Part shown: in pieces, positions 38,012 through 45,839 of the stretch
How positions within the stretch are numbered: the first letter of the stretch is position 1
Layout of the letters: each line of letters starts with the position of its first letter
NCBI GenBank assembly: GCA_047607325.1
Contig: JASGDG010000412.1
Coordinates: forward strand, 17,711-81,710
Source: Xenophilus sp.
Lineage (GTDB): Bacteria; Pseudomonadota; Gammaproteobacteria; Burkholderiales; Burkholderiaceae_C
Direction: 5' to 3'
DNA length: 64,000 bases
The notes under the pieces: model-generated
Told to the model about the DNA's origin: nothing
Database searches by the model: none
Seen by the model: only the letters and a program-made list of their open reading frames with translations
Position numbers and translations under genes: made by a program

Positions 38012-38911
38012 TTATCGTTTTTTCGGATTCGCCGGGGCTTGGTAGCCGGGAGCCAGCTTGGCGTTCTCGACACCGTACAAGGCCAGCGGGTCGGCGAGCC
38101 ACAAGCGGTACTGTTCTTCGGTGAGGCGGTGGTCGGGCGAGCAGTCCACGCTCCAGCGCAACAGCATGTAGCCCGCGACCGCCGCGCGCACGCGCATGCG
38201 GATCGCGCCATCGGTCATGGCGTAGTCCATGCGGATGATTTCGGGTCGGGCCAGACGAGGGTGCGGCACGAAGTCCAGCTCGACGATGCGCGTCCACTGG
38301 ATGTCGTTGTCCGGGCGCTCGTGGGCTTGGGGCTCCTCGTCGAGCAGGGTTGGCGCTTCGATGCGGGTGACGACGAAGTCGCGGAACTCGCCGCTTTTGC
38401 GGTCGAAGGCGCGGACGTGCCAGCGCAGGCCGGTGTCCACCAAGGCGAAGGGAACGATGGCCCGCTGCGTCTTGCCGCTGCTCATCGAGTGGTAACGGAT
38501 GGCGACCGGTCGCTTGGCGTGGATGGCGCGGCAGATCGGAGCCAAAACGTCCATCTTGGGGTTGCTCAAGGCCGTGGGTGACTCGCAGGGCAGCAATGGC
38601 GCGGACGCCGCGTTCAGCCCGTCGCCGAAGCCCAAGGCCAGCGACGACAGCACGCGCTGCGAGGCGTGCTCGAAGATCGGCGCGAAGGTCTTGCCGATCC
38701 GGTACACCTTGCTGCTGCCGTCGAACTCGATGTTCTTGGGGGCGATTTCTCGGTACAGCGCCAGATCGCGGGTTGCGCCTGCGGGCGCCACGCCGAAGCG
38801 GTCGATGAGATCGGGGCGGCCTATTTCGCCGAGGAAGTAGAGCCGGAAGTCGATGTAGGCCAGCCGCTCACGCTGGGCATGGCTCAAGCTTTCGACACGC
38901 TGTGGATGCAT
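38012..38911 (-). CDS. WYL-domain transcriptional regulator (BrxR/CapW-like)
   Basis: N-terminal wHTH (RLAYIDFRLYFLG...ATRDLALY); WYL core RWHVRAFDRKSGEFRDFVVTRI; first gene of the defence run. Confidence 0.9.
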   Translation of the reverse strand: MHPQRVESLSHAQRERLAYIDFRLYFLGEIGRPDLIDRFGVAPAGATRDLALYREIAPKNIEFDGSSKVYRIGKTFAPIFEHASQRVLSSLALGFGDGLNAASAPLLPCESPTALSNPKMDVLAPICRAIHAKRPVAIRYHSMSSGKTQRAIVPFALVDTGLRWHVRAFDRKSGEFRDFVVTRIEAPTLLDEEPQAHERPDNDIQWTRIVELDFVPHPRLARPEIIRMDYAMTDGAIRMRVRAAVAGYMLLRWSVDCSPDHRLTEEQYRLWLADPLALYGVENAKLAPGYQAPANPKKR

Positions 38912-38988: not shown

Positions 38989-39005
38989 ATCATCAAAGTG
39001 ATGAT
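38989..39005. promoter_or_regulatory. Palindromic operator candidate in the divergent promoter
   Basis: ATCATCA-AAG-TGATGAT perfect inverted repeat in an AT-rich spacer between the WYL gene and the + strand operon. Confidence 0.55.
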
Positions 39006-39077: not shown

Positions 39078-40829
39078 ATGGTCGATATTGCTGCATTGAT
39101 GAAGGTGTTGCCCGTCTCAAAGCTGGAGCCGGATTGGGTCGCCTCGCTTGGGGGCTTTATCGATGTGCCCAAGGATCGCTGGTGGGAGGAGCGCATCGGG
39201 TTGCTGGAGCCGCCCGCTGGCCAGCGCGTGCCCTACATCGAGCCGGTGGATGCGCTGGAAAAACTGCTGCGTCGCCAGGGCGTCGCGCCGGAGGACGCCA
39301 AAGCGCGGGCGCTTGAAGCCGTGGCCCGGATGAAGGACGACGTGGCGGAAGACCACTGGGTCAACTTCTTCAATGACCTCGAACCGGAATCCTCCGACTG
39401 TCTGCCGGCGTCCGACTTCGTGGCATGGCTGCGTGACGAACGCCGCCGGATCAATCGGCTGGCATCCGACCTCAAGCTCGACGGGCAAGGCTTCAAGGAA
39501 CTGGCCAGCGAGGAAATGCTGGTGCCGTCCGACATCCTCGACTTCTTCGAGCAGGCTGCGGAAGTGACAGCGCGCACGCCGATGTTCCGTGGGCCGGACA
39601 ACTGGGACGCACCGTGGTCATTGGAAACCTTGCCTGCGCTGCCGCCGCCCAAGGCCATGATCGAGTTCGTGCCCGGCCCGCCGTGGGACGACTTTGAGTC
39701 CGACTGGAAGTCGCAGGACAACCCATTCTTGCGCTGGCGCGAGGCCATGCGCCCCGTGGCGCATGAGCTGGAGAAGGCGCTCGGCGAGCCGGTGTATCAC
39801 TTCGCCGACCTGGACTGCGACACCGATGACGATGACGTGCATCGCTTCCTCGTACTGCACTGGTGCTGCACGCACAGGCCGGAATCGGCCTTCGTGCGCT
39901 ACCTGCTGAAAATCAGCGGTGCCAGCGATGTCGAAGAACTCAAGGCGGCGCTGATTGACCCGGCCAGCTACACGCAGCCGTTCCAGATGAACGGATCGTT
40001 CGTCGGACTGGAAGCATCGGGCTGCGGCGGCCATATCGACTACCTGCCTTCGGAGGTGCGCAAATCGGTGGGCGTGGTGTTCCTGACCGAAGCGGCTCGT
40101 GAGGTGGCGTTCACGCTGCTGATGCAGCAGATCGGCGCACATGCCTTCATCGTCGCGCCGAAGGAATTGACGACCGACGCATGGGTCAAGCAGGCGACGC
40201 GCTACTGCCGTGACTGGACGGTGCGCTATGTGTACGACGGCAAGCTGGACGATCTCATCGACATCTTGGCTGGGGTCGATTCACTGCATGTGATCGTCAA
40301 CGAGCCGACGCCGAAATCCGGGTTCGACCTGAAGCTGTCCGAGCCGGTGGAAGACCTGCTGTGGTTGGCGTTCGGCCTTGGCGTCGAAGCGAAGTATTAC
40401 CACGTCGAGCGCACGCAATTGATGAATCCCGATACCTGCCTGCAAAAGCGCGGCGTACCCGAACGGGTGGCGGCGCGGCAGGTGCAACGTGCGGCATTCA
40501 CCCGACAACTCAGGGAAGTCCGGCTGGACAACGACTACGGCAGCAGCGGCCTGTGGGATGAGGAAGGCAAGATGCTCGGTTACGACTTGCTGGATTTGCC
40601 CTTCCCGCTGGTGCGGCGGATCGCCGCGTGGCAACGGGACTACGACGACACCGTGACCCCGCCCGACGAGGGCAGCGATGAATGGTGGGATCGCCATGAA
40701 GATGAAGCGGTTGAAATCGCCCAGGAACTGCAAGCGGCCTTGGGTGCGAACACGGTCGTCAAGCTGTATCGCAAGCAGGGCTGGATGAGCGTTGATGAAG
40801 CCGTCCGCGTCGAGGGAGATGTGTCATGA
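39078..40829 (+). CDS. Uncharacterised acidic multidomain protein (583 aa)
   Basis: Long ORF; C-terminal roughly 85 aa resembles the N-terminal domain of 43448-44365. Confidence 0.75.
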   Translation: MVDIAALMKVLPVSKLEPDWVASLGGFIDVPKDRWWEERIGLLEPPAGQRVPYIEPVDALEKLLRRQGVAPEDAKARALEAVARMKDDVAEDHWVNFFNDLEPESSDCLPASDFVAWLRDERRRINRLASDLKLDGQGFKELASEEMLVPSDILDFFEQAAEVTARTPMFRGPDNWDAPWSLETLPALPPPKAMIEFVPGPPWDDFESDWKSQDNPFLRWREAMRPVAHELEKALGEPVYHFADLDCDTDDDDVHRFLVLHWCCTHRPESAFVRYLLKISGASDVEELKAALIDPASYTQPFQMNGSFVGLEASGCGGHIDYLPSEVRKSVGVVFLTEAAREVAFTLLMQQIGAHAFIVAPKELTTDAWVKQATRYCRDWTVRYVYDGKLDDLIDILAGVDSLHVIVNEPTPKSGFDLKLSEPVEDLLWLAFGLGVEAKYYHVERTQLMNPDTCLQKRGVPERVAARQVQRAAFTRQLREVRLDNDYGSSGLWDEEGKMLGYDLLDLPFPLVRRIAAWQRDYDDTVTPPDEGSDEWWDRHEDEAVEIAQELQAALGANTVVKLYRKQGWMSVDEAVRVEGDVS

Positions 40830-42073
40830 CCTTGGCTTGGAGCAAGAGCGATGAACCGAAGCATCCGCAGGCGCGCGACATCAAGCGCAACTGCGGGCAG
40901 CTACTCGGTCGCATGGATGAGTTGCTGCCGTGCCTCTACATCGCGCAATACGGCGCGTCTGGGCGCGCCATGCGCGAACGGACAGCGGACGCGGCTGCGG
41001 GCCTGTTCGCCGTTGGCGCGCGCACGGGCGGCGACCGTCCCGGCGTCGCGCCGCGCGTTGGCTTGCTGCTGCCCCTCAGCCTGTGCCGCGACGAGACGGC
41101 GCGCGCGTCGTTGCTGGACATCCCGGCTGTGATCGAGAACCCGCAGTCCACGATGTCGGACAGGCGGCGCGCGGTGCAGGCCAAGCTGGATGAAGCGTTC
41201 GGCGGCGATCTGAGAATCGCGGACAAGGAAAGCCTCGATGGCTTCTTCGCGCTCAGGCTCGGCCTCAGTCTTTTCCGCCGCTTGCACGAGTCCTTCGATT
41301 ACGTCACCGAAGTCCTCGACAACCCGGCAGGCCTTGTTCGCATTACCGGCTCGTCGCGTTTTGGCTGGCGCAGCTATGGCGAATTGATGGAGTGGTATCA
41401 CAGCCTGCGTGGCTCGGATCGCTTTGGCGCGTGGTCGGCGCTCACGCCGTTCTTCGTCTGCGGCAATACGGGGGCGCTGCACTCGTACAGCACCGAGCGT
41501 TGGGCGCGTGCTGGCTTGAGCAGGCCCGCCGAGGAACCCGCCAAGTGGTTCGTGCTCCGCCCCGGCCTGCTGGATGCCCAGCTCGGTATCCGGCTGGCAA
41601 TGGAGGAGTACGGCTGGGCCAAGCTGCACCTGACGCTCGACGATGCCACAGCCACGATTCACCTGTCAGAGGTGTTCGACCCATTCCCCGAACTGGTGGC
41701 TTGGGGGCGTGAGATCGGCGAAGGCGATCTGCCGGTCGAGATGGAAATCGACGAGGAAGGTCAGGAGGCTGTGCTGACGGTGCTGCGCACCGATGATTCG
41801 CAGCGCGTGCTGCTGCGCGTCACGCGCAAATACGAGAACACGACGCTACTGGAGGGCATCGTGGCGCGCGCCACCTTGGCTGCGGCCTTGAAGGCGGAGT
41901 TGCTCCGGTTTTTCACGGTGGAGTTCGATCCGCAGCATTGGGATTTGCGGGGCGATCCCGAAGACATCGAAGACGACCACGTCTTCGTCAAGGACACCGT
42001 TCTGAATCACCCGTGGCTCGCCACTGCCGATAGCGCAAACGGGCCGCGCAGTCAGGATACGGAGGTTCCATGA
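40826..42073 (+). CDS. Uncharacterised protein (415 aa)
   Basis: ATGA overlaps at both ends; no recognised motif. Confidence 0.75.
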   Translation: MTLAWSKSDEPKHPQARDIKRNCGQLLGRMDELLPCLYIAQYGASGRAMRERTADAAAGLFAVGARTGGDRPGVAPRVGLLLPLSLCRDETARASLLDIPAVIENPQSTMSDRRRAVQAKLDEAFGGDLRIADKESLDGFFALRLGLSLFRRLHESFDYVTEVLDNPAGLVRITGSSRFGWRSYGELMEWYHSLRGSDRFGAWSALTPFFVCGNTGALHSYSTERWARAGLSRPAEEPAKWFVLRPGLLDAQLGIRLAMEEYGWAKLHLTLDDATATIHLSEVFDPFPELVAWGREIGEGDLPVEMEIDEEGQEAVLTVLRTDDSQRVLLRVTRKYENTTLLEGIVARATLAAALKAELLRFFTVEFDPQHWDLRGDPEDIEDDHVFVKDTVLNHPWLATADSANGPRSQDTEVP

Positions 42074-42975
42074 ACCCAAACGCCGCCGTGCTGCTGATGC
42101 TGCTTTGCATGCTCGCCGCGTGGGCATGGGTTTGGCGCGTCATCGCCACGCGCCGAACGGTGCGCGGGAGAAACCGCTTCATCGCGCACCTGATTGGCGC
42201 ACTGGCGGGCAGCGGTGCGGTGTTCGGCGCGTTCTGCCTGAGCGGAGCCTTGCTGATGCCGGGCGCGGGCGACGGGGCATCGATTGCGATTGGGGTATTC
42301 GGCGCGCTGGTGCTTTGCGCGTATCTCGGCGCATTGCATTCCCCAAAGCAGAAGGCGTCGCAAAGCGCCGAGGCCGAACCTGCCGTGCTGGTAGCGGTCG
42401 CCGGGACGAAGACTGACGCAAGCCCTGTGTCGCGCGTGCCGCGCAAACCCTTCAAGGATTCGCTCCAGTCATGGTGGCAGGAGGAAAAACGCAGGCAGGA
42501 AGAATTTCTGCGGCAAGAGGAACGCAAGCGCGTCTCGCGGGAAAAGGCGCTGGGCATGCCATTCGGCACGTTTTTCTCGGAGCGGATGGAAGACCACCTC
42601 ATGCTTTGGGGCGGTGTGCTGTTCCTCATCGTGTGGGGGTGCCTGTTTGCTTTCGTCCCCTCGGCGGGGGACTGGCTGACCCGGCTGGTTGTGAGTTTCA
42701 TCGTCGCGTGCCTGCTGGCTGCCGTGTGGGGCGTGTCCTGCATCGTGATCGTCCCGGCCATATTGCTGCTCTTGGTGCTGCTGCCATTTGCTTGCGTCAG
42801 CATCCTTGCGGAGGCGTGGTGGCGCATCCGCCACAACCAGCCCTACATCGCGCCACCCGTTGTCATCAGCTACGACAGCATCGCCTCTTCGGCCCCAACC
42901 CGGAACACCGGCAACTGGCTCGTGCCGCTGGCCATTGGGCTGTGGATAGGAAATGCGTGGGGCAAGGACGATTGA
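42070..42975 (+). CDS. Uncharacterised multi-pass membrane protein
   Basis: Two hydrophobic clusters separated by a charged coil (QEEKRRQEEFLRQEERKR). Confidence 0.75.
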   Translation: MNPNAAVLLMLLCMLAAWAWVWRVIATRRTVRGRNRFIAHLIGALAGSGAVFGAFCLSGALLMPGAGDGASIAIGVFGALVLCAYLGALHSPKQKASQSAEAEPAVLVAVAGTKTDASPVSRVPRKPFKDSLQSWWQEEKRRQEEFLRQEERKRVSREKALGMPFGTFFSERMEDHLMLWGGVLFLIVWGCLFAFVPSAGDWLTRLVVSFIVACLLAAVWGVSCIVIVPAILLLLVLLPFACVSILAEAWWRIRHNQPYIAPPVVISYDSIASSAPTRNTGNWLVPLAIGLWIGNAWGKDD

Positions 42976-43027
42976 GAGGGCACCAAGCTCGCCGCGAGAT
43001 CAAGTGACGCCCATGTGAGATTGAACA

Positions 43028-43441
43028 ATGCGCCAACGCTACTTCCTCATCGAACCGAAGTATTCCGACCCGGACACGTTCTGCCACTTCGTCGTTGGCA
43101 GCGACCGAGTGCGCGCCTCCATCCAGATCTATGCCGATCTGTGGATGCTCAGCGAAGTGTCTGCCGCACTGACGGCCCCATCGCTGAAGGCGGAAGCGCC
43201 CGTTGTGGCCGAATACGAGGATGGCGACGATCTGTTCTATTTCTACCTGACGGTGTTGCCGCACGAGGGCGGAAACAAGCGCCTGCGCTTCCGGGTGTTT
43301 CAGGACTGGCTGGATGACGGTGCGCCGTATCGGGCCGACATTCGTTTCGACCTCACGCCCACGGAGGCCGAGGAGTTCGCAAAGGAACTCAAGGCATGGT
43401 GCGGTAAGCCTGAGTACGCTTTCGTGTGGAAGGCGGATTGA
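43028..43441 (+). CDS. Small acidic hypothetical protein (immunity-protein-like)
   Basis: 137 aa, acidic and aromatic. Confidence 0.65.
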   Translation: MRQRYFLIEPKYSDPDTFCHFVVGSDRVRASIQIYADLWMLSEVSAALTAPSLKAEAPVVAEYEDGDDLFYFYLTVLPHEGGNKRLRFRVFQDWLDDGAPYRADIRFDLTPTEAEEFAKELKAWCGKPEYAFVWKAD

Positions 43442-43447
43442 AATTCC

Positions 43448-44365
43448 ATGAACGACGCCGTGCCTGCTTCTTTCACACCCGTTCTCACCGTAATGGTGGA
43501 CTACGGAAATGCGCCGTTCCTGTGGCTGGTGGAAAGTCCTGACCAGGGCGGTGTCGGGCCGAACCTGTGCGACGGCTCGTTTTGGGATGATTCTTTCCCG
43601 ATGTCCGAAGGGCTTTGGCGCAAGTTCGCCGACTGGGCCATCGAGTTCGACCGCACGGCGTTCTACTCCGACGCTTTCAACGCCGACGACTGGGATTGGC
43701 CTGCCTTCCACGCACGCGGACTGCAACTGTCCCGCTGGCTGAAAGAGGAAGTCGGCACTGCGTATCGTGTCGTGTACGACAAGCCTTTCGAAGACCCGAA
43801 TCACCGCATTGACGAACGCACGGAAATACTCGCCAACGGCACGCTGTTTCCGCTGCCGCCGTTTCGCAGTCCGTTCCCCGAACCACTTCGCTTCTGCGAA
43901 CGCATCGTCTCCGGTGGACAGACGGGGGCGGATCGCGGCGCGCTGGATTTCGCCATCAAGCACGGCTATCTGCACGGAGGGTGGGCCCCGCACGGGCGCG
44001 AAGCCGAGGATGGCCTTGTCCCACTGAAATACCAGCTCACGGAATTGGCCGATGGCGGCTACCGCCAGCGCACCCGACGCAACGTGGAGGAGAGTGATGG
44101 CACCTTGATCGTCAATCTCGGCGAACTGGACGGCGGGACGCTGGCCACCGAAGTCTTCGCCCGGCAGAAAGGTCAGCCGCATCTCATTGTGCAGCTCGAC
44201 GCCGGGGTCACAGCAGATGCGGCGGCCAGTGTTCTTGCATGGCTGCGTGAATACACCATCAAGACATTGAACGTCGCTGGCCCGCGAGAGAGCAAGCGAC
44301 CGGGCATCTACCGATTGACCGGAGAGCTATTGGAAGCGGTCGATGCCTTGCTTCACCCGGCTTGA
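43448..44365 (+). CDS. Unknown N-terminal domain fused to a putative molybdenum-carrier (SLOG superfamily) domain
   Basis: IVSGGQTGADRGALD...GGWAP...RTRRNVEESDGTL...LNVAGPRESK. Confidence 0.85.
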   Translation: MNDAVPASFTPVLTVMVDYGNAPFLWLVESPDQGGVGPNLCDGSFWDDSFPMSEGLWRKFADWAIEFDRTAFYSDAFNADDWDWPAFHARGLQLSRWLKEEVGTAYRVVYDKPFEDPNHRIDERTEILANGTLFPLPPFRSPFPEPLRFCERIVSGGQTGADRGALDFAIKHGYLHGGWAPHGREAEDGLVPLKYQLTELADGGYRQRTRRNVEESDGTLIVNLGELDGGTLATEVFARQKGQPHLIVQLDAGVTADAAASVLAWLREYTIKTLNVAGPRESKRPGIYRLTGELLEAVDALLHPA

Positions 44366-44474: not shown

Positions 44475-45839
44475 CTACGCGAGCCGGTACACGCGCGTCG
44501 GCGTGCCCGGCGCATCGGCGGGCCGCTCGACCGTTTGCACGCTGATCTTCGGCGGCGTGCTGGCCAACAGGTGCTCCAGACCGGCGTCGATCCGCGCCTT
44601 CGGCACCTTGCCACGGAAGCATTCGGCGCTGATCTGGCTGCGCGTGGCCTGACCGCGCTCGCGCAGGAAGGCCAGCACGCGGTTCGACAGTTCCCGCACT
44701 TGCGTCAGCTTCGCTTCCTCGGCGGCGCTGACGAACACGAAGCGGACGGAGGCCGTGGCGTGCCGAATCCACGCCATCGCCGCGTCGATGTGCGGGGTGT
44801 CGATATGGGTTTGCAGGTCGGTCAGCGCCATCAGCATCGCCAGCCGCAGCAGCATCGGAGCGCGGCGTTCCAGCAGCGCGCCGACGACACCGTCGCCGAG
44901 ATCGTCGTTCAGCTCGCCCCGGTAGAGCTGGGCGTAGCGCCACTGCGCCTGCGGCGACAGTTCCATCCGCAGGTGGTCGCGCTCGCCGTGCCGGTCAGCG
45001 CGGACGAAAGCCAGCACTTCCCGTGTTCTGCGCGCCAGATGCTCGACCACTGCCTGCGGCGTTTCCTTCGGGAACGGCAACATCCGCGACCGCTCGGCCC
45101 AGATCATCAGGAAGCGATTGGCGAAGCCGTTGGTGAGTTCGCGCGCGCTCATCAGGCCGGTCAGTTCGCTGGGCGAAATCGCGCCGCTCAAGCAGACGTG
45201 CGGCTGGCTGGCGTAGAGCCGGTTCGACTTGGTGGCGGGCTTGAGATCGACGCCATCCCAACAGTCGCGCAGCGCCGCCGACAGGGTGTTGCCGTCGCGC
45301 CGCCCCTGATGCAGCACGTTGGCGAATTCCGACTCGACCACCCACAGGCGCTTGTCCTCGATGGCGGACACGTCTTGCCGACTCTGCCGGTAGCCGTCGT
45401 GCATCAGCGCCACCAATCCTTCGCGGCTGGAGAGGCCGCCGCGATGAACCTGCGGCGCGAAGGCTTCGTCCATCTCGCGTAACGCCTGATCGATGCGCAG
45501 CACCAGCGACACCGCATCGCCCTTGCGGCCACGGCCCGAACGCCCGATGTGCAGGCAGAACAGGCGTGCGTGGTGCCGGGTGTTGCCGATGGGCAGGTAC
45601 ACGCCGCGCCCAACCGCGCAGGACAGGTAGGCCATGAAGTTGGCGGCGATGGCGGCGGCGTTGGTCTCCGTGCCTTCGCTGCCCGCGCGAGCGACGTCGC
45701 CGATCAGGCCATGAAGACAGGCCGCGTCGGCCACGGGCGCGTTGCGGTGTGCGTGCGCCATTTCACCGTCGTCGTCATCCGTGGCGTCCAGTTGTGATGC
45801 GCCGTGAGATGAGGTGGTGACATCGACGATCCGGCGCAT
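44475..45839 (-). CDS. DUF3987/YfjI-family P-loop replication helicase-like protein
   Basis: GRSGRGRKGDA Walker A-like; SSREGL; VVESEF; LRDCWDG; NGFANRFL. Confidence 0.8.
   Translation of the reverse strand: MRRIVDVTTSSHGASQLDATDDDDGEMAHAHRNAPVADAACLHGLIGDVARAGSEGTETNAAAIAANFMAYLSCAVGRGVYLPIGNTRHHARLFCLHIGRSGRGRKGDAVSLVLRIDQALREMDEAFAPQVHRGGLSSREGLVALMHDGYRQSRQDVSAIEDKRLWVVESEFANVLHQGRRDGNTLSAALRDCWDGVDLKPATKSNRLYASQPHVCLSGAISPSELTGLMSARELTNGFANRFLMIWAERSRMLPFPKETPQAVVEHLARRTREVLAFVRADRHGERDHLRMELSPQAQWRYAQLYRGELNDDLGDGVVGALLERRAPMLLRLAMLMALTDLQTHIDTPHIDAAMAWIRHATASVRFVFVSAAEEAKLTQVRELSNRVLAFLRERGQATRSQISAECFRGKVPKARIDAGLEHLLASTPPKISVQTVERPADAPGTPTRVYRLA

What the first reader, a model, noticed from the sequence alone, without database searches (positions are those of the whole stretch)
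39078..44365. Uncharacterised five-gene operon diverging from the WYL regulator: candidate new defence or immunity system
Seen: 583-aa, 415-aa, 301-aa (multi-TM), 137-aa and 305-aa ORFs, two joined by ATGA overlaps; four match no family I recognise and the fifth ends in a SLOG-type domain. It sits between a multi-system defence operon and a recombinase/TA region. Established: unknown operons in defence islands are often new systems, and SLOG domains handle nucleotides in conflict systems. Inference: a sensor, membrane effector and nucleotide-processing system, or an array of immunity proteins, since most of the soluble products are acidic and Trp-rich.
Basis: partly seen in the sequence, partly recalled or inferred. 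Interest (0 to 1): 0.78.

Follow-up and report, generated by a model that had tools for sequence, protein, structure and literature searches.

The report
WYL-linked array of immunity-like unknown genes
Five real but unannotated genes next to a WYL/BrxR regulator form a loose, shuffled set rather than a fixed machine; two carry a domain resembling an immunity protein that blocks a bacterial RNase toxin, and relatives often sit beside the RNA-repair ligase RtcB, so the set most likely protects against RNA-targeting toxins.

Summary
The five ORFs exist as described. ORF1/ORF2 and ORF2/ORF3 overlap by ATGA. The four soluble products are acidic and Trp-rich, and all five genes are under purifying selection (dN/dS 0.08-0.45). 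ORF1-4 match nothing in Pfam, NCBIfam, PADLOC or PHROGs. ORF5 ends in a cpYpsA SLOG domain (E=4e-55).

New result: profiles of the ORF1 C-terminus and of the ORF5 N-terminus each pick the same single top PDB chain. It is 7M5F CdiI, the immunity protein of a BECR-fold RNase toxin (E=0.014 and 0.0014, nearly full length, toxin-contact DY...W motif kept).

Across 56 independent related loci only this window has all five genes. Subsets recur in one fixed order with frequent deletions. ORF2 follows ORF1 in 17 of 32 loci that have enough downstream DNA.

Recurrent neighbours:
- WYL regulators, 10 loci
- type I R-M, 8 loci
- RtcB RNA ligase, 5 loci
- an HD_4 alarmone hydrolase, 6 loci
- a SnoaL/NTF2-like protein, 7 loci, also found fused to ORF1

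Best reading (about 0.4): a WYL-controlled, modular antidote and immunity-like array against RNA-directed toxins, not a sensor-plus-membrane-effector system. The AlphaFold models of ORF1 (pLDDT 88.5) and ORF2 have no fold match in the PDB. Function is untested.

The parts
38012..38911 (-). WYL-domain regulator of the BrxR family, divergent from ORF1; first gene of the R-M/GmrSD operon
   Evidence: Pfam WYL, E=7.8e-14. Homologues 87% identical in L019 and L020 carry WHD_BrxR + WYL + BrxR_CTD. The same family lies beside the cluster in 8 independent loci, and a second WYL family does so in 2 more.
38989..39005 (.). 17-bp palindrome ATCATCA-AAG-TGATGAT in the divergent promoter region; candidate WYL operator
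   Evidence: Read from the sequence. It is identical in L020, L011 and L008 and nearly so in L019, although the flanks diverge. It abuts a minus-strand promoter-like site at 39034-39006. Binding is inferred, not tested.
39078..40829 (+). ORF1, 583 aa, acidic. It has a conserved core (residues 1-475, including a Rossmann-like domain at about 326-448) and a C-terminal CdiI-like domain.
   Evidence: 192 homologues, all named hypothetical. AF2 model pLDDT 88.5, pTM 0.86. No PDB or BFVD match at E<1e-3. Invariant D251 D252 H255 R256 H261 W262 C264.
40503..40802 (+). CdiI(BWH57)-like domain of ORF1 (residues about 476-575)
   Evidence: Profile A5 hits 7m5f_A CdiI at E=0.014, chain residues 1-92 of 98. 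The model has 4 strands and 2 helices, as described for CdiI. In some homologues this domain is replaced or followed by SnoaL_2, or followed by HD_4.
40826..42073 (+). ORF2, 415 aa, acidic; start overlaps the ORF1 stop (ATGA)
   Evidence: 130 homologues, no annotation. AF2 pLDDT 81; the C-terminal half is two beta-meander-plus-helix units. Only weak Whirly/PUR-like matches, E about 0.03. It follows ORF1 in 17 of 32 loci with enough flank.
42070..42975 (+). ORF3, 301 aa, basic multi-pass membrane protein with a charged central loop; start overlaps the ORF2 stop (ATGA)
   Evidence: Hydropathy. Present in only 5 independent loci, always directly after ORF2. dN/dS 0.27-0.45.
43028..43441 (+). ORF4, 137 aa, acidic, small stand-alone family
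   Evidence: 47 representatives among 1.84 billion proteins. No Pfam or PDB relative. Directly upstream of an ORF5 homologue in L025, L033 and L057, with remnants in L018 and L028.
43448..44365 (+). ORF5, 305 aa: N-terminal CdiI-like domain (about 43475-43792) and C-terminal cpYpsA SLOG domain (43904-44338)
   Evidence: cpYpsA E=4.1e-55. N-terminal profile A4 hits 7m5f_A CdiI at E=0.0014. hhalign of A5 against A4: E=1e-3, probability 20%. The two-domain family has 261 or more members, named 'putative molybdenum carrier protein' by NCBI.

Best explanation
The five genes are a modular, mobile array of antidote or immunity-type proteins under a divergent BrxR-family WYL regulator. They are not one fixed multi-subunit machine.

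Proposed working:
- The WYL repressor binds the conserved palindrome between the two divergent operons. It releases both operons when it senses a nucleic-acid damage or infection signal (inferred).
- ORF1 and ORF5 then use their CdiI-like domains to bind and block a cytoplasmic BECR-type RNase. Such a toxin could be delivered by CDI, T6SS or colicin-like systems, or unleashed during phage or mobile-element conflict (inferred from homology).
- The cpYpsA SLOG domain of ORF5 binds or processes a nucleotide (inferred from the family).
- ORF2 and ORF4 are acidic binding or chaperone-like partners. ORF3 is an optional membrane partner (weakest part of the model).

In related loci the same genes sit with RtcB RNA ligase, an HD_4 small alarmone hydrolase and an NTF2-like protein. 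The shared theme is neutralising or reversing damage to RNA and the translation apparatus.
For: 1. Two independently built profiles, ORF1 C-terminus and ORF5 N-terminus, each give the same single best PDB hit, 7m5f_A CdiI. E=0.014 and 0.0014, nearly the whole 98-residue chain; the full-length ORF1 profile gives E=0.12.
2. CdiI toxin-contact residues D9, Y10 and W16 (PMC8616854) align with the conserved DY...LW of both domains.
3. The cognate toxin is a BECR-fold RNase related to colicins E5 and D.
4. RtcB lies in the same operon or right beside the genes in 5 independent loci. It religates the kind of ends that such RNases make (my knowledge).
5. An HD_4 alarmone hydrolase is adjacent in 4 loci and fused to ORF1 in 2 more.
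6. A SnoaL_2/NTF2-like domain is adjacent to ORF1, fused at either end of it, or swapped in for the CdiI-like domain.
7. Gene content varies freely while order is kept, with many clean deletions. This fits independent units.
8. WYL regulators adjoin the cluster in 10 independent loci, and the palindrome is conserved.
9. All soluble products are acidic. The CdiI surface that meets its basic toxin is also acidic.
10. All five genes are under purifying selection.
Against: - The CdiI similarity is borderline: E=1e-3 to 1e-2, and hhalign between the two domains gives only 20% probability.
- No toxin gene is adjacent in any locus.
- The CdiI-like domains are fused into larger proteins instead of standing alone. 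The ORF1 model is one compact body (pTM 0.86), not beads on a string.
- The ORF1 core has invariant Asp, His, Arg and Cys residues. That looks more like an enzyme than a fast-evolving immunity protein.
- ORF1 and ORF2 are well conserved (mean column identity 57-58%).
- This genome assembly has no RtcB (about 90% complete).
- Nothing was tested experimentally.
Confidence: 0.4

Rival explanations
1. A true multi-gene anti-phage defence system. ORF1 and/or the SLOG domain of ORF5 sense an infection cue or a nucleotide signal. ORF3 is a membrane-disrupting effector that aborts infection, and the WYL protein controls expression.
For: - Defence-island context beside type I R-M, GmrSD and SMODS, seen again in 8 loci with HsdM.
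- BrxR-type WYL regulators mostly accompany defence systems (my knowledge; domain calls).
- SLOG domains occur as sensors in conflict systems (PMC9503650).
- ATGA coupling of ORF1-ORF2-ORF3.
Against: - ORF3 is in only 5 of 56 loci, and the full set is in only 1.
- No signal-producing enzyme is in the cluster.
- No PADLOC hit.
- Frequent partial deletions occur in near-identical contigs.
- ORF5 also occurs alone.
Confidence: 0.22
2. Counter-defence (establishment) cargo of the integrative element. The acidic proteins, RtcB, the alarmone hydrolase and the SLOG domain would neutralise the recipient's abortive-infection RNases, toxSAS toxins or nucleotide signals when the island enters a new host.
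For: - The cluster abuts the ParB-ParB-serine-recombinase module in 3 independent islands (window, L015, L019), and a serine-recombinase remnant follows it in L033. It lies next to tyrosine integrases in others.
- Products are acidic, like DNA- or RNA-mimic anti-restriction proteins.
- Phage-encoded SLOG domains are proposed to degrade immune signals (PMC9503650).
Against: - No ORF1 relative was found in IMG/VR viral contigs, and there are no PHROG hits.
- The cluster is tied to host-type WYL repressors and R-M operons.
- ORF4-ORF5 sit in a chromosomal RtcR-RtcB-RtcA operon next to core translation genes in Methylomicrobium.
Confidence: 0.15
3. No joint function. The genes are unrelated hitch-hiking cargo that happen to be syntenic through common descent of one island and are now decaying.
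For: Many truncations and deletions. The families are rare: ORF1 is in 1 of 400 sampled genomes of its class.
Against: - dN/dS is 0.08-0.45 at dS up to 1-3.
- The same order recurs in islands with different recombinases and different hosts.
- Gene fusions link ORF1 with SnoaL, HD_4 and the ORF2 C-terminus.
- Translational coupling is kept even after deletion.
Confidence: 0.1

Closest known systems
CdiI immunity protein of Serratia marcescens BWH57 (PDB 7M5F), partner of a BECR-fold CdiA-CT RNase
   Same: The only PDB relative of both the ORF1 C-terminal and the ORF5 N-terminal domain. Same size, the same 4-strand/2-helix make-up in the model, conserved D-Y...W contact motif, acidic.
   Different: Here the domain is fused to a 475-residue core (ORF1) or to a SLOG domain (ORF5). 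It is not next to any cdiA or other toxin gene. Similarity is borderline, and binding is untested.
cpYpsA / 'molybdenum carrier protein' SLOG family (Pfam PF12694)
   Same: ORF5 residues 153-297 are a full-length member with the GGQTGADRGA loop.
   Different: It carries an extra N-terminal CdiI-like domain. This two-domain form is a family of its own with 261 or more members and no studied member that I know of.
BrxR/CapW-type WYL regulators heading defence islands
   Same: A BrxR-family WYL gene with a conserved palindrome in its promoter sits at the head of the R-M/GmrSD operon and divergent from ORF1.
   Different: The known cases regulate the co-directional defence genes. Control of the divergent unknown operon is inferred only.
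RtcB-centred RNA repair operons (RtcR-RtcB-RtcA; RtcB2-PrfH, which protects against colicin E3, PMC9223846)
   Same: Relatives of ORF1, ORF2, ORF4 and ORF5 lie in or beside rtcB operons in 5 independent loci. The logic is the same: undo RNase damage.
   Different: This window and its genome assembly have no RtcB. None of the five proteins is a known Rtc component.
Orphan or poly-immunity gene arrays and WYL/Nudix-regulated damage-reversal systems (the ARG-centric systems of Iyer et al. 2022, PMC9503650)
   Same: A conserved core with variable modules that are gained and lost between close genomes, a WYL repressor, an alarmone-type HD phosphatase, vWA and double beta-meander chaperone-like proteins, and no cognate toxin nearby.
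   Different: No ADP-ribosylglycohydrolase is present. The families here are different and unnamed. Identity of ORF2 with TY-Chap2 was not tested.

Membership tests
CdiI (BWH57 type) immunity proteins | Significant sequence similarity over the whole domain | tested here: inconclusive
   E=0.0014 (ORF5 N-terminus) and 0.014 (ORF1 C-terminus) against 177,635 PDB sequences. It is the sole hit for the ORF1 C-terminal profile and the top of four for the ORF5 N-terminal profile, covering chain residues 1-92 and 28-95 of 98. There is no Pfam model for this family.
CdiI (BWH57 type) immunity proteins | Conserved toxin-contact residues (K5, D9, Y10, W16 in PMC8616854) | tested here: met
   The alignments place ORF1 R-x3-DY-x5-W and ORF5 DY-x6-W on these positions. 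Y19 and W26 of ORF5 and R, W of ORF1 are invariant in their families.
CdiI (BWH57 type) immunity proteins | Encoded directly downstream of its cognate cdiA-CT (or other polymorphic toxin) gene | tested here: not met
   No toxin or CdiA gene lies next to the cluster in the window or in the annotated related loci.
CdiI (BWH57 type) immunity proteins | Binds and neutralises a BECR RNase | not testable with these tools
   Needs binding or protection assays, or complex prediction.
cpYpsA SLOG (PF12694) | Match above Pfam gathering score over the full model | tested here: met
   186 bits against a cut-off of 26.2, model positions 1-143 of 145.
Described anti-phage defence systems (PADLOC-DB 2.0) | Any component matches a system model | tested here: not met
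   0 hits for all five proteins at E<=1.
   Only the window has all five among 56 independent loci. ORF2 is in 23 loci, ORF3 in 5, ORF4 in 8 and the ORF5 N-terminal domain in 18. Order is always kept.
BrxR-family WYL regulators | wHTH + WYL + BrxR C-terminal domain architecture | tested here: met
   WYL domain in the window protein. Homologues 87% identical carry PF26109 + PF13280 + PF26107.
RtcB RNA repair operon | rtcB in the operon | tested here: not met
   No RtcB in the window or the 3.7-Mb assembly. It is present in 5 related loci.

The most novel reading that the evidence does not exclude
ORF1, with ORF2, is the core of an undescribed WYL-controlled response system. A conserved 475-residue, possibly enzymatic, body with a new fold carries exchangeable 'bait or antidote' heads: CdiI-like, NTF2-like, or an alarmone hydrolase. 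It works with RtcB to detect and reverse attacks on tRNA and rRNA. That would be a new class of anti-toxin and RNA-damage immunity encoded in defence islands.
Probability: 0.2. Interest if true: 0.8.

Novelty: new variant of a known kind. Interest (0 to 1): 0.58.

Why it matters
Defence islands are mined for anti-phage systems, but protection against RNA-cleaving toxins from rival bacteria and mobile elements is far less mapped.

This locus links several things in one recurring, mobile neighbourhood:
- four protein families with no annotation, two of which (ORF1, ORF2) were modelled with confidence and have no PDB fold match
- a CdiI-type immunity domain
- a SLOG domain
- WYL regulators
- RtcB
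- an alarmone hydrolase

If the reading holds, it gives testable candidates for broad 'orphan' immunity and RNA-damage repair. It would also give a first functional handle on the widespread CdiI-like plus cpYpsA proteins now mislabelled 'molybdenum carrier protein'.

Tried and rejected
- Pfam, NCBIfam, PADLOC and PHROGs scans of all five proteins, and Pfam scans of divergent ORF1 homologues and of nine neighbour proteins, gave nothing usable. The one exception was cpYpsA.
- Foldseek of the ORF1 model against PDB and BFVD gave only generic Rossmann-like matches (LDH, SDR, Card1 CARF), none at E<1e-3.
- Foldseek of ORF2 gave weak Whirly/PUR-alpha/lipocalin matches. I do not file ORF2 under any of these.
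- BLASTP among the five proteins found no shared domain. hhalign of eight domain profiles, all against all, gave only ORF1-C against ORF5-N as a weak top pair.
- ORF4 against the ORF2 C-terminus aligned over 85 columns with 1% probability. Rejected as unproven.
- The ORF4 profile against PDB and Pfam found nothing.
- ORF1 in viral contigs: none.
- ORF1 in 400 genomes of the same class: found only in its own genome.
- RNA-seq support could not be obtained; only DNA runs hold the stretch.
- The Burroughs and Aravind 2016 RNA-repair paper could not be read. I therefore cannot say whether these families are named there.
- I considered ORF4 as a BECR-like toxin partner of ORF5. I rejected it because ORF4 is acidic and ORF5 often occurs without it.
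Full report
**1. Observation**

ORF1/ORF2 and ORF2/ORF3 overlap by ATGA. ORF4 and ORF5 are 6 nt apart.

The four soluble products have pI 4.6-5.1 and 2.4-3.3% Trp. ORF3 is basic with about six hydrophobic segments.

ORF5 residues 153-297 are a full-length cpYpsA SLOG domain (PF12694, E=4.1e-55). ORF1-4 match nothing in Pfam, NCBIfam, PADLOC-DB or PHROGs.

The left neighbours, on the minus strand, are WYL, GmrSD, HsdM, HsdS, YhcG, HsdR and SMODS. The right neighbours are a 454-aa protein, two RepB/ParB proteins, a large serine recombinase and AbiEi.

The genes are real. They have 192, 130, 47 (50%-identity clusters) and 261 or more homologues. dN/dS against relatives is 0.08-0.45 at dS 0.25-3.

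**2. Do the five genes travel together?**

I collected 66 loci: 12 from species genomes, 40 from metagenomes and 13 around individual homologues, plus the window's own copy (L026). These reduce to 56 independent loci. I mapped 30 query proteins on them.

Only the window has all five genes. Subsets recur, always in the order 1-2-3-4-5:
- Jeongeupia sp. USM3 has the same island with 1-2-5.
- Thiobacillus has a 36-codon remnant of ORF1, then 2-3-5.
- L015 has 1-2-3.
- L033 and L057 have 1-2-4-5N.
- Polycyclovorans has 1-5.
- Methylomicrobium has 4-5.

ORF2 follows ORF1 in 17 of 32 loci that have at least 1.3 kb downstream. ORF3 occurs in 5 loci, ORF4 in 8 and the ORF5 N-terminal domain in 18.

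Deletion scars are common: ORF2(1-51) joined to ORF4(101-137), ORF1(1-296) joined to ORF2(301-413), and an ORF2 tail in front of ORF5 in Methylococcus. Near-identical metagenome contigs carry a 1652-nt and a 3029-nt deletion and a 1237-nt insertion inside the cluster.

The families are rare. ORF1 was found in 1 of 400 sampled genomes of its class, its own, and in no viral contig. So this is a recurrent but freely reshuffled neighbourhood, not an obligate five-part system.

**3. Recurrent companions**

- WYL regulators adjoin the cluster in 10 independent loci. Eight belong to the BrxR family and lie divergent, as here. Two belong to another WYL family and lie co-directionally upstream.
- Type I R-M (HsdM) adjoins in 8 loci.
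- RtcB RNA ligase is in the same operon or beside it in 5 loci: L015 (WYL-685aa-RtcB-four small genes-ORF1-2-3), L018 (vWA-RtcB-SnoaL-ORF1-ORF2-ORF5N), L035, L025 (RtcR-RtcB-RtcA-ORF4-ORF5, followed by a Thg1-like enzyme and a kinase) and L013. In L013, ORF1-ORF2 sit between RtcB residues 1-74 and 371-398.
- A 131-aa SnoaL_2/NTF2-like protein precedes ORF1 in 7 loci. It is also fused to ORF1 at the N-terminus, fused after the C-terminal domain, or swapped in for that domain.
- A 182-aa HD_4 small alarmone hydrolase occurs in 6 loci, in two of them fused to the ORF1 C-terminus.
- Several further unannotated, mostly acidic families co-occur (p347, p550, p249/p215, p287).

By my estimate, one rtcB per genome near a given gene is expected in well under 1% of loci. 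Five of 56 loci, many of them short, is therefore a strong enrichment. This is an inference, not a formal test.

**4. What the proteins look like**

*ORF1.* It folds with confidence (pLDDT 88.5, pTM 0.86) into one compact body of about four regions, including a Rossmann-like domain (about 326-448). Foldseek finds no PDB or BFVD match at E<1e-3. The core carries invariant D251 D252 H255 R256 H261 W262 C264.

*ORF2.* pLDDT is 81. Its C-terminal half is two beta-meander-plus-helix units. Only weak Whirly/PUR-like matches appear.

*The shared domain.* The informative result came from sequence profiles.
- A profile of the ORF1 C-terminal domain (A5) and an independent profile of the ORF5 N-terminal domain (A4) each return the same top PDB chain, 7m5f_A CdiI. 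E=0.014 and 0.0014, covering 92 and 68 of its 98 residues. The full-length ORF1 profile gives E=0.12.
- Direct hhalign of the two profiles gives E=1e-3 and probability 20%. It was the best of 28 domain pairs.
- This agrees with another first-stage note that one unnamed domain occurs twice in the operon.

7M5F is the CdiA-CT/CdiI complex of S. marcescens BWH57. The toxin has the BECR RNase fold, like colicins E5 and D. The 98-residue acidic immunity protein contacts it through K5, D9, Y10 and W16 among others (PMC8616854). These positions align with the conserved R...DY...LW of ORF1 and DY...LW of ORF5. The ORF1 model of this domain has four strands and two helices, as described for CdiI.

The similarity is borderline and I treat membership as likely but unproven. 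Two defining features are not met: there is no adjacent toxin gene, and the domain does not stand alone.

**5. Regulation**

The 166-bp divergent region holds a perfect 17-bp palindrome, ATCATCA-AAG-TGATGAT (38989-39005), next to a minus-strand promoter-like site. The palindrome is identical in four islands and nearly so in a fifth, while the flanks diverge. It is a good candidate operator for the BrxR-type WYL protein and is placed to affect both operons. This is inferred.

**6. Explanation**

The pieces fit an antidote and repair theme aimed at attacks on RNA and the translation apparatus:
- a CdiI-like inhibitor domain for BECR RNases
- RtcB, which reseals the 2',3'-cyclic-phosphate and 5'-OH ends such RNases make
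- an alarmone hydrolase of the kind that counters (p)ppApp or toxSAS toxins (my knowledge)
- an NTF2-like domain, a fold used by immunity proteins (my knowledge)
- a SLOG domain

The free gain and loss of units, the lack of any cognate toxin and the WYL repressor resemble orphan immunity arrays. They also resemble the WYL/Nudix-regulated 'damage-reversal' conflict systems proposed by Iyer et al. (PMC9503650).

I therefore favour, at about 0.4, a WYL-controlled modular array of immunity-like proteins.

Points against this reading:
- the compact, well-conserved ORF1 core with enzyme-like invariant residues
- the borderline statistics of the CdiI similarity
- the absence of RtcB from this assembly

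Rivals are a true sensor-effector defence system (0.22), counter-defence cargo of the integrative element (0.15) and no joint function (0.10).

**7. Novelty and verdict**

The kind of thing is known: immunity and antidote arrays, and RNA-repair-linked conflict modules. The families, the CdiI-like plus cpYpsA fusion, the ORF1 architecture with exchangeable C-terminal heads, and the WYL/RtcB linkage are, as far as I could check, undescribed. I could not read the 2016 RNA-repair survey.

I rate it a new variant of a known kind with moderate-to-good interest (0.58). It is a concrete, cheaply testable lead, not a demonstrated system.

Noticed in passing
L013 9738-13081 (also L001, L031): In Thiobacillus MAGs, ORF1-ORF2 lie between RtcB residues 1-74 and RtcB residues 371-398, as if the pair had replaced the middle of rtcB.
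   Followed up: partly
window 39103-42133, 39520-41173, 40788-40833: Near-identical contigs in wastewater, groundwater and termite-gut metagenomes carry a 3029-nt deletion (ORF1 and ORF2 gone), a 1652-nt out-of-frame deletion (ORF1 codon about 148 to ORF2 codon about 116) and a 1237-nt insertion at the ORF1/ORF2 junction.
   Followed up: no
L020 9894-10004: ORF1 is reduced to a 36-codon in-frame mini-ORF (its first 8 or so and last 28 or so codons) that still overlaps the ORF2 start. The deletion preserved translational coupling.
   Followed up: partly
L025 2172-10479 (Methylomicrobium): RtcR-RtcB-RtcA, then an ORF4 homologue and an ORF5 homologue, then a convergent Thg1-like enzyme plus an AAA_33 kinase. 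This is a dense RNA-end-repair neighbourhood next to pheST/rplT/infC.
   Followed up: no
L002 4360-9488; L006 3028-9904: A second conserved block travels with the cluster behind the same WYL family. It consists of an HD_4 alarmone hydrolase, a very acidic 347-aa protein (pI 4.2), a 550-570-aa basic protein, an ORF5 homologue, then a Cys-rich 249-aa or a membrane-anchored 215-aa protein. None but the hydrolase has any annotation.
   Followed up: partly
window 44475-45839 (-): The 454-aa protein between ORF5 and the ParB genes has no Pfam hit at E<=1e-3. It is conserved at 83% identity in Jeongeupia at the same position. Another first-stage note calls it DUF3987-like.
   Followed up: no
window 42866-44182 (-): A 438-aa open frame runs antisense across ORF3-ORF5. 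It is a high-GC artefact; the + strand genes have the homologues and the selection signal.
   Followed up: partly
P0042 (937 aa, metagenome): One homologue is a single chain made of an ORF1 tail (residues 418-581), a full ORF1 and the ORF2 C-terminal half. This fusion links ORF1 and ORF2.
   Followed up: no
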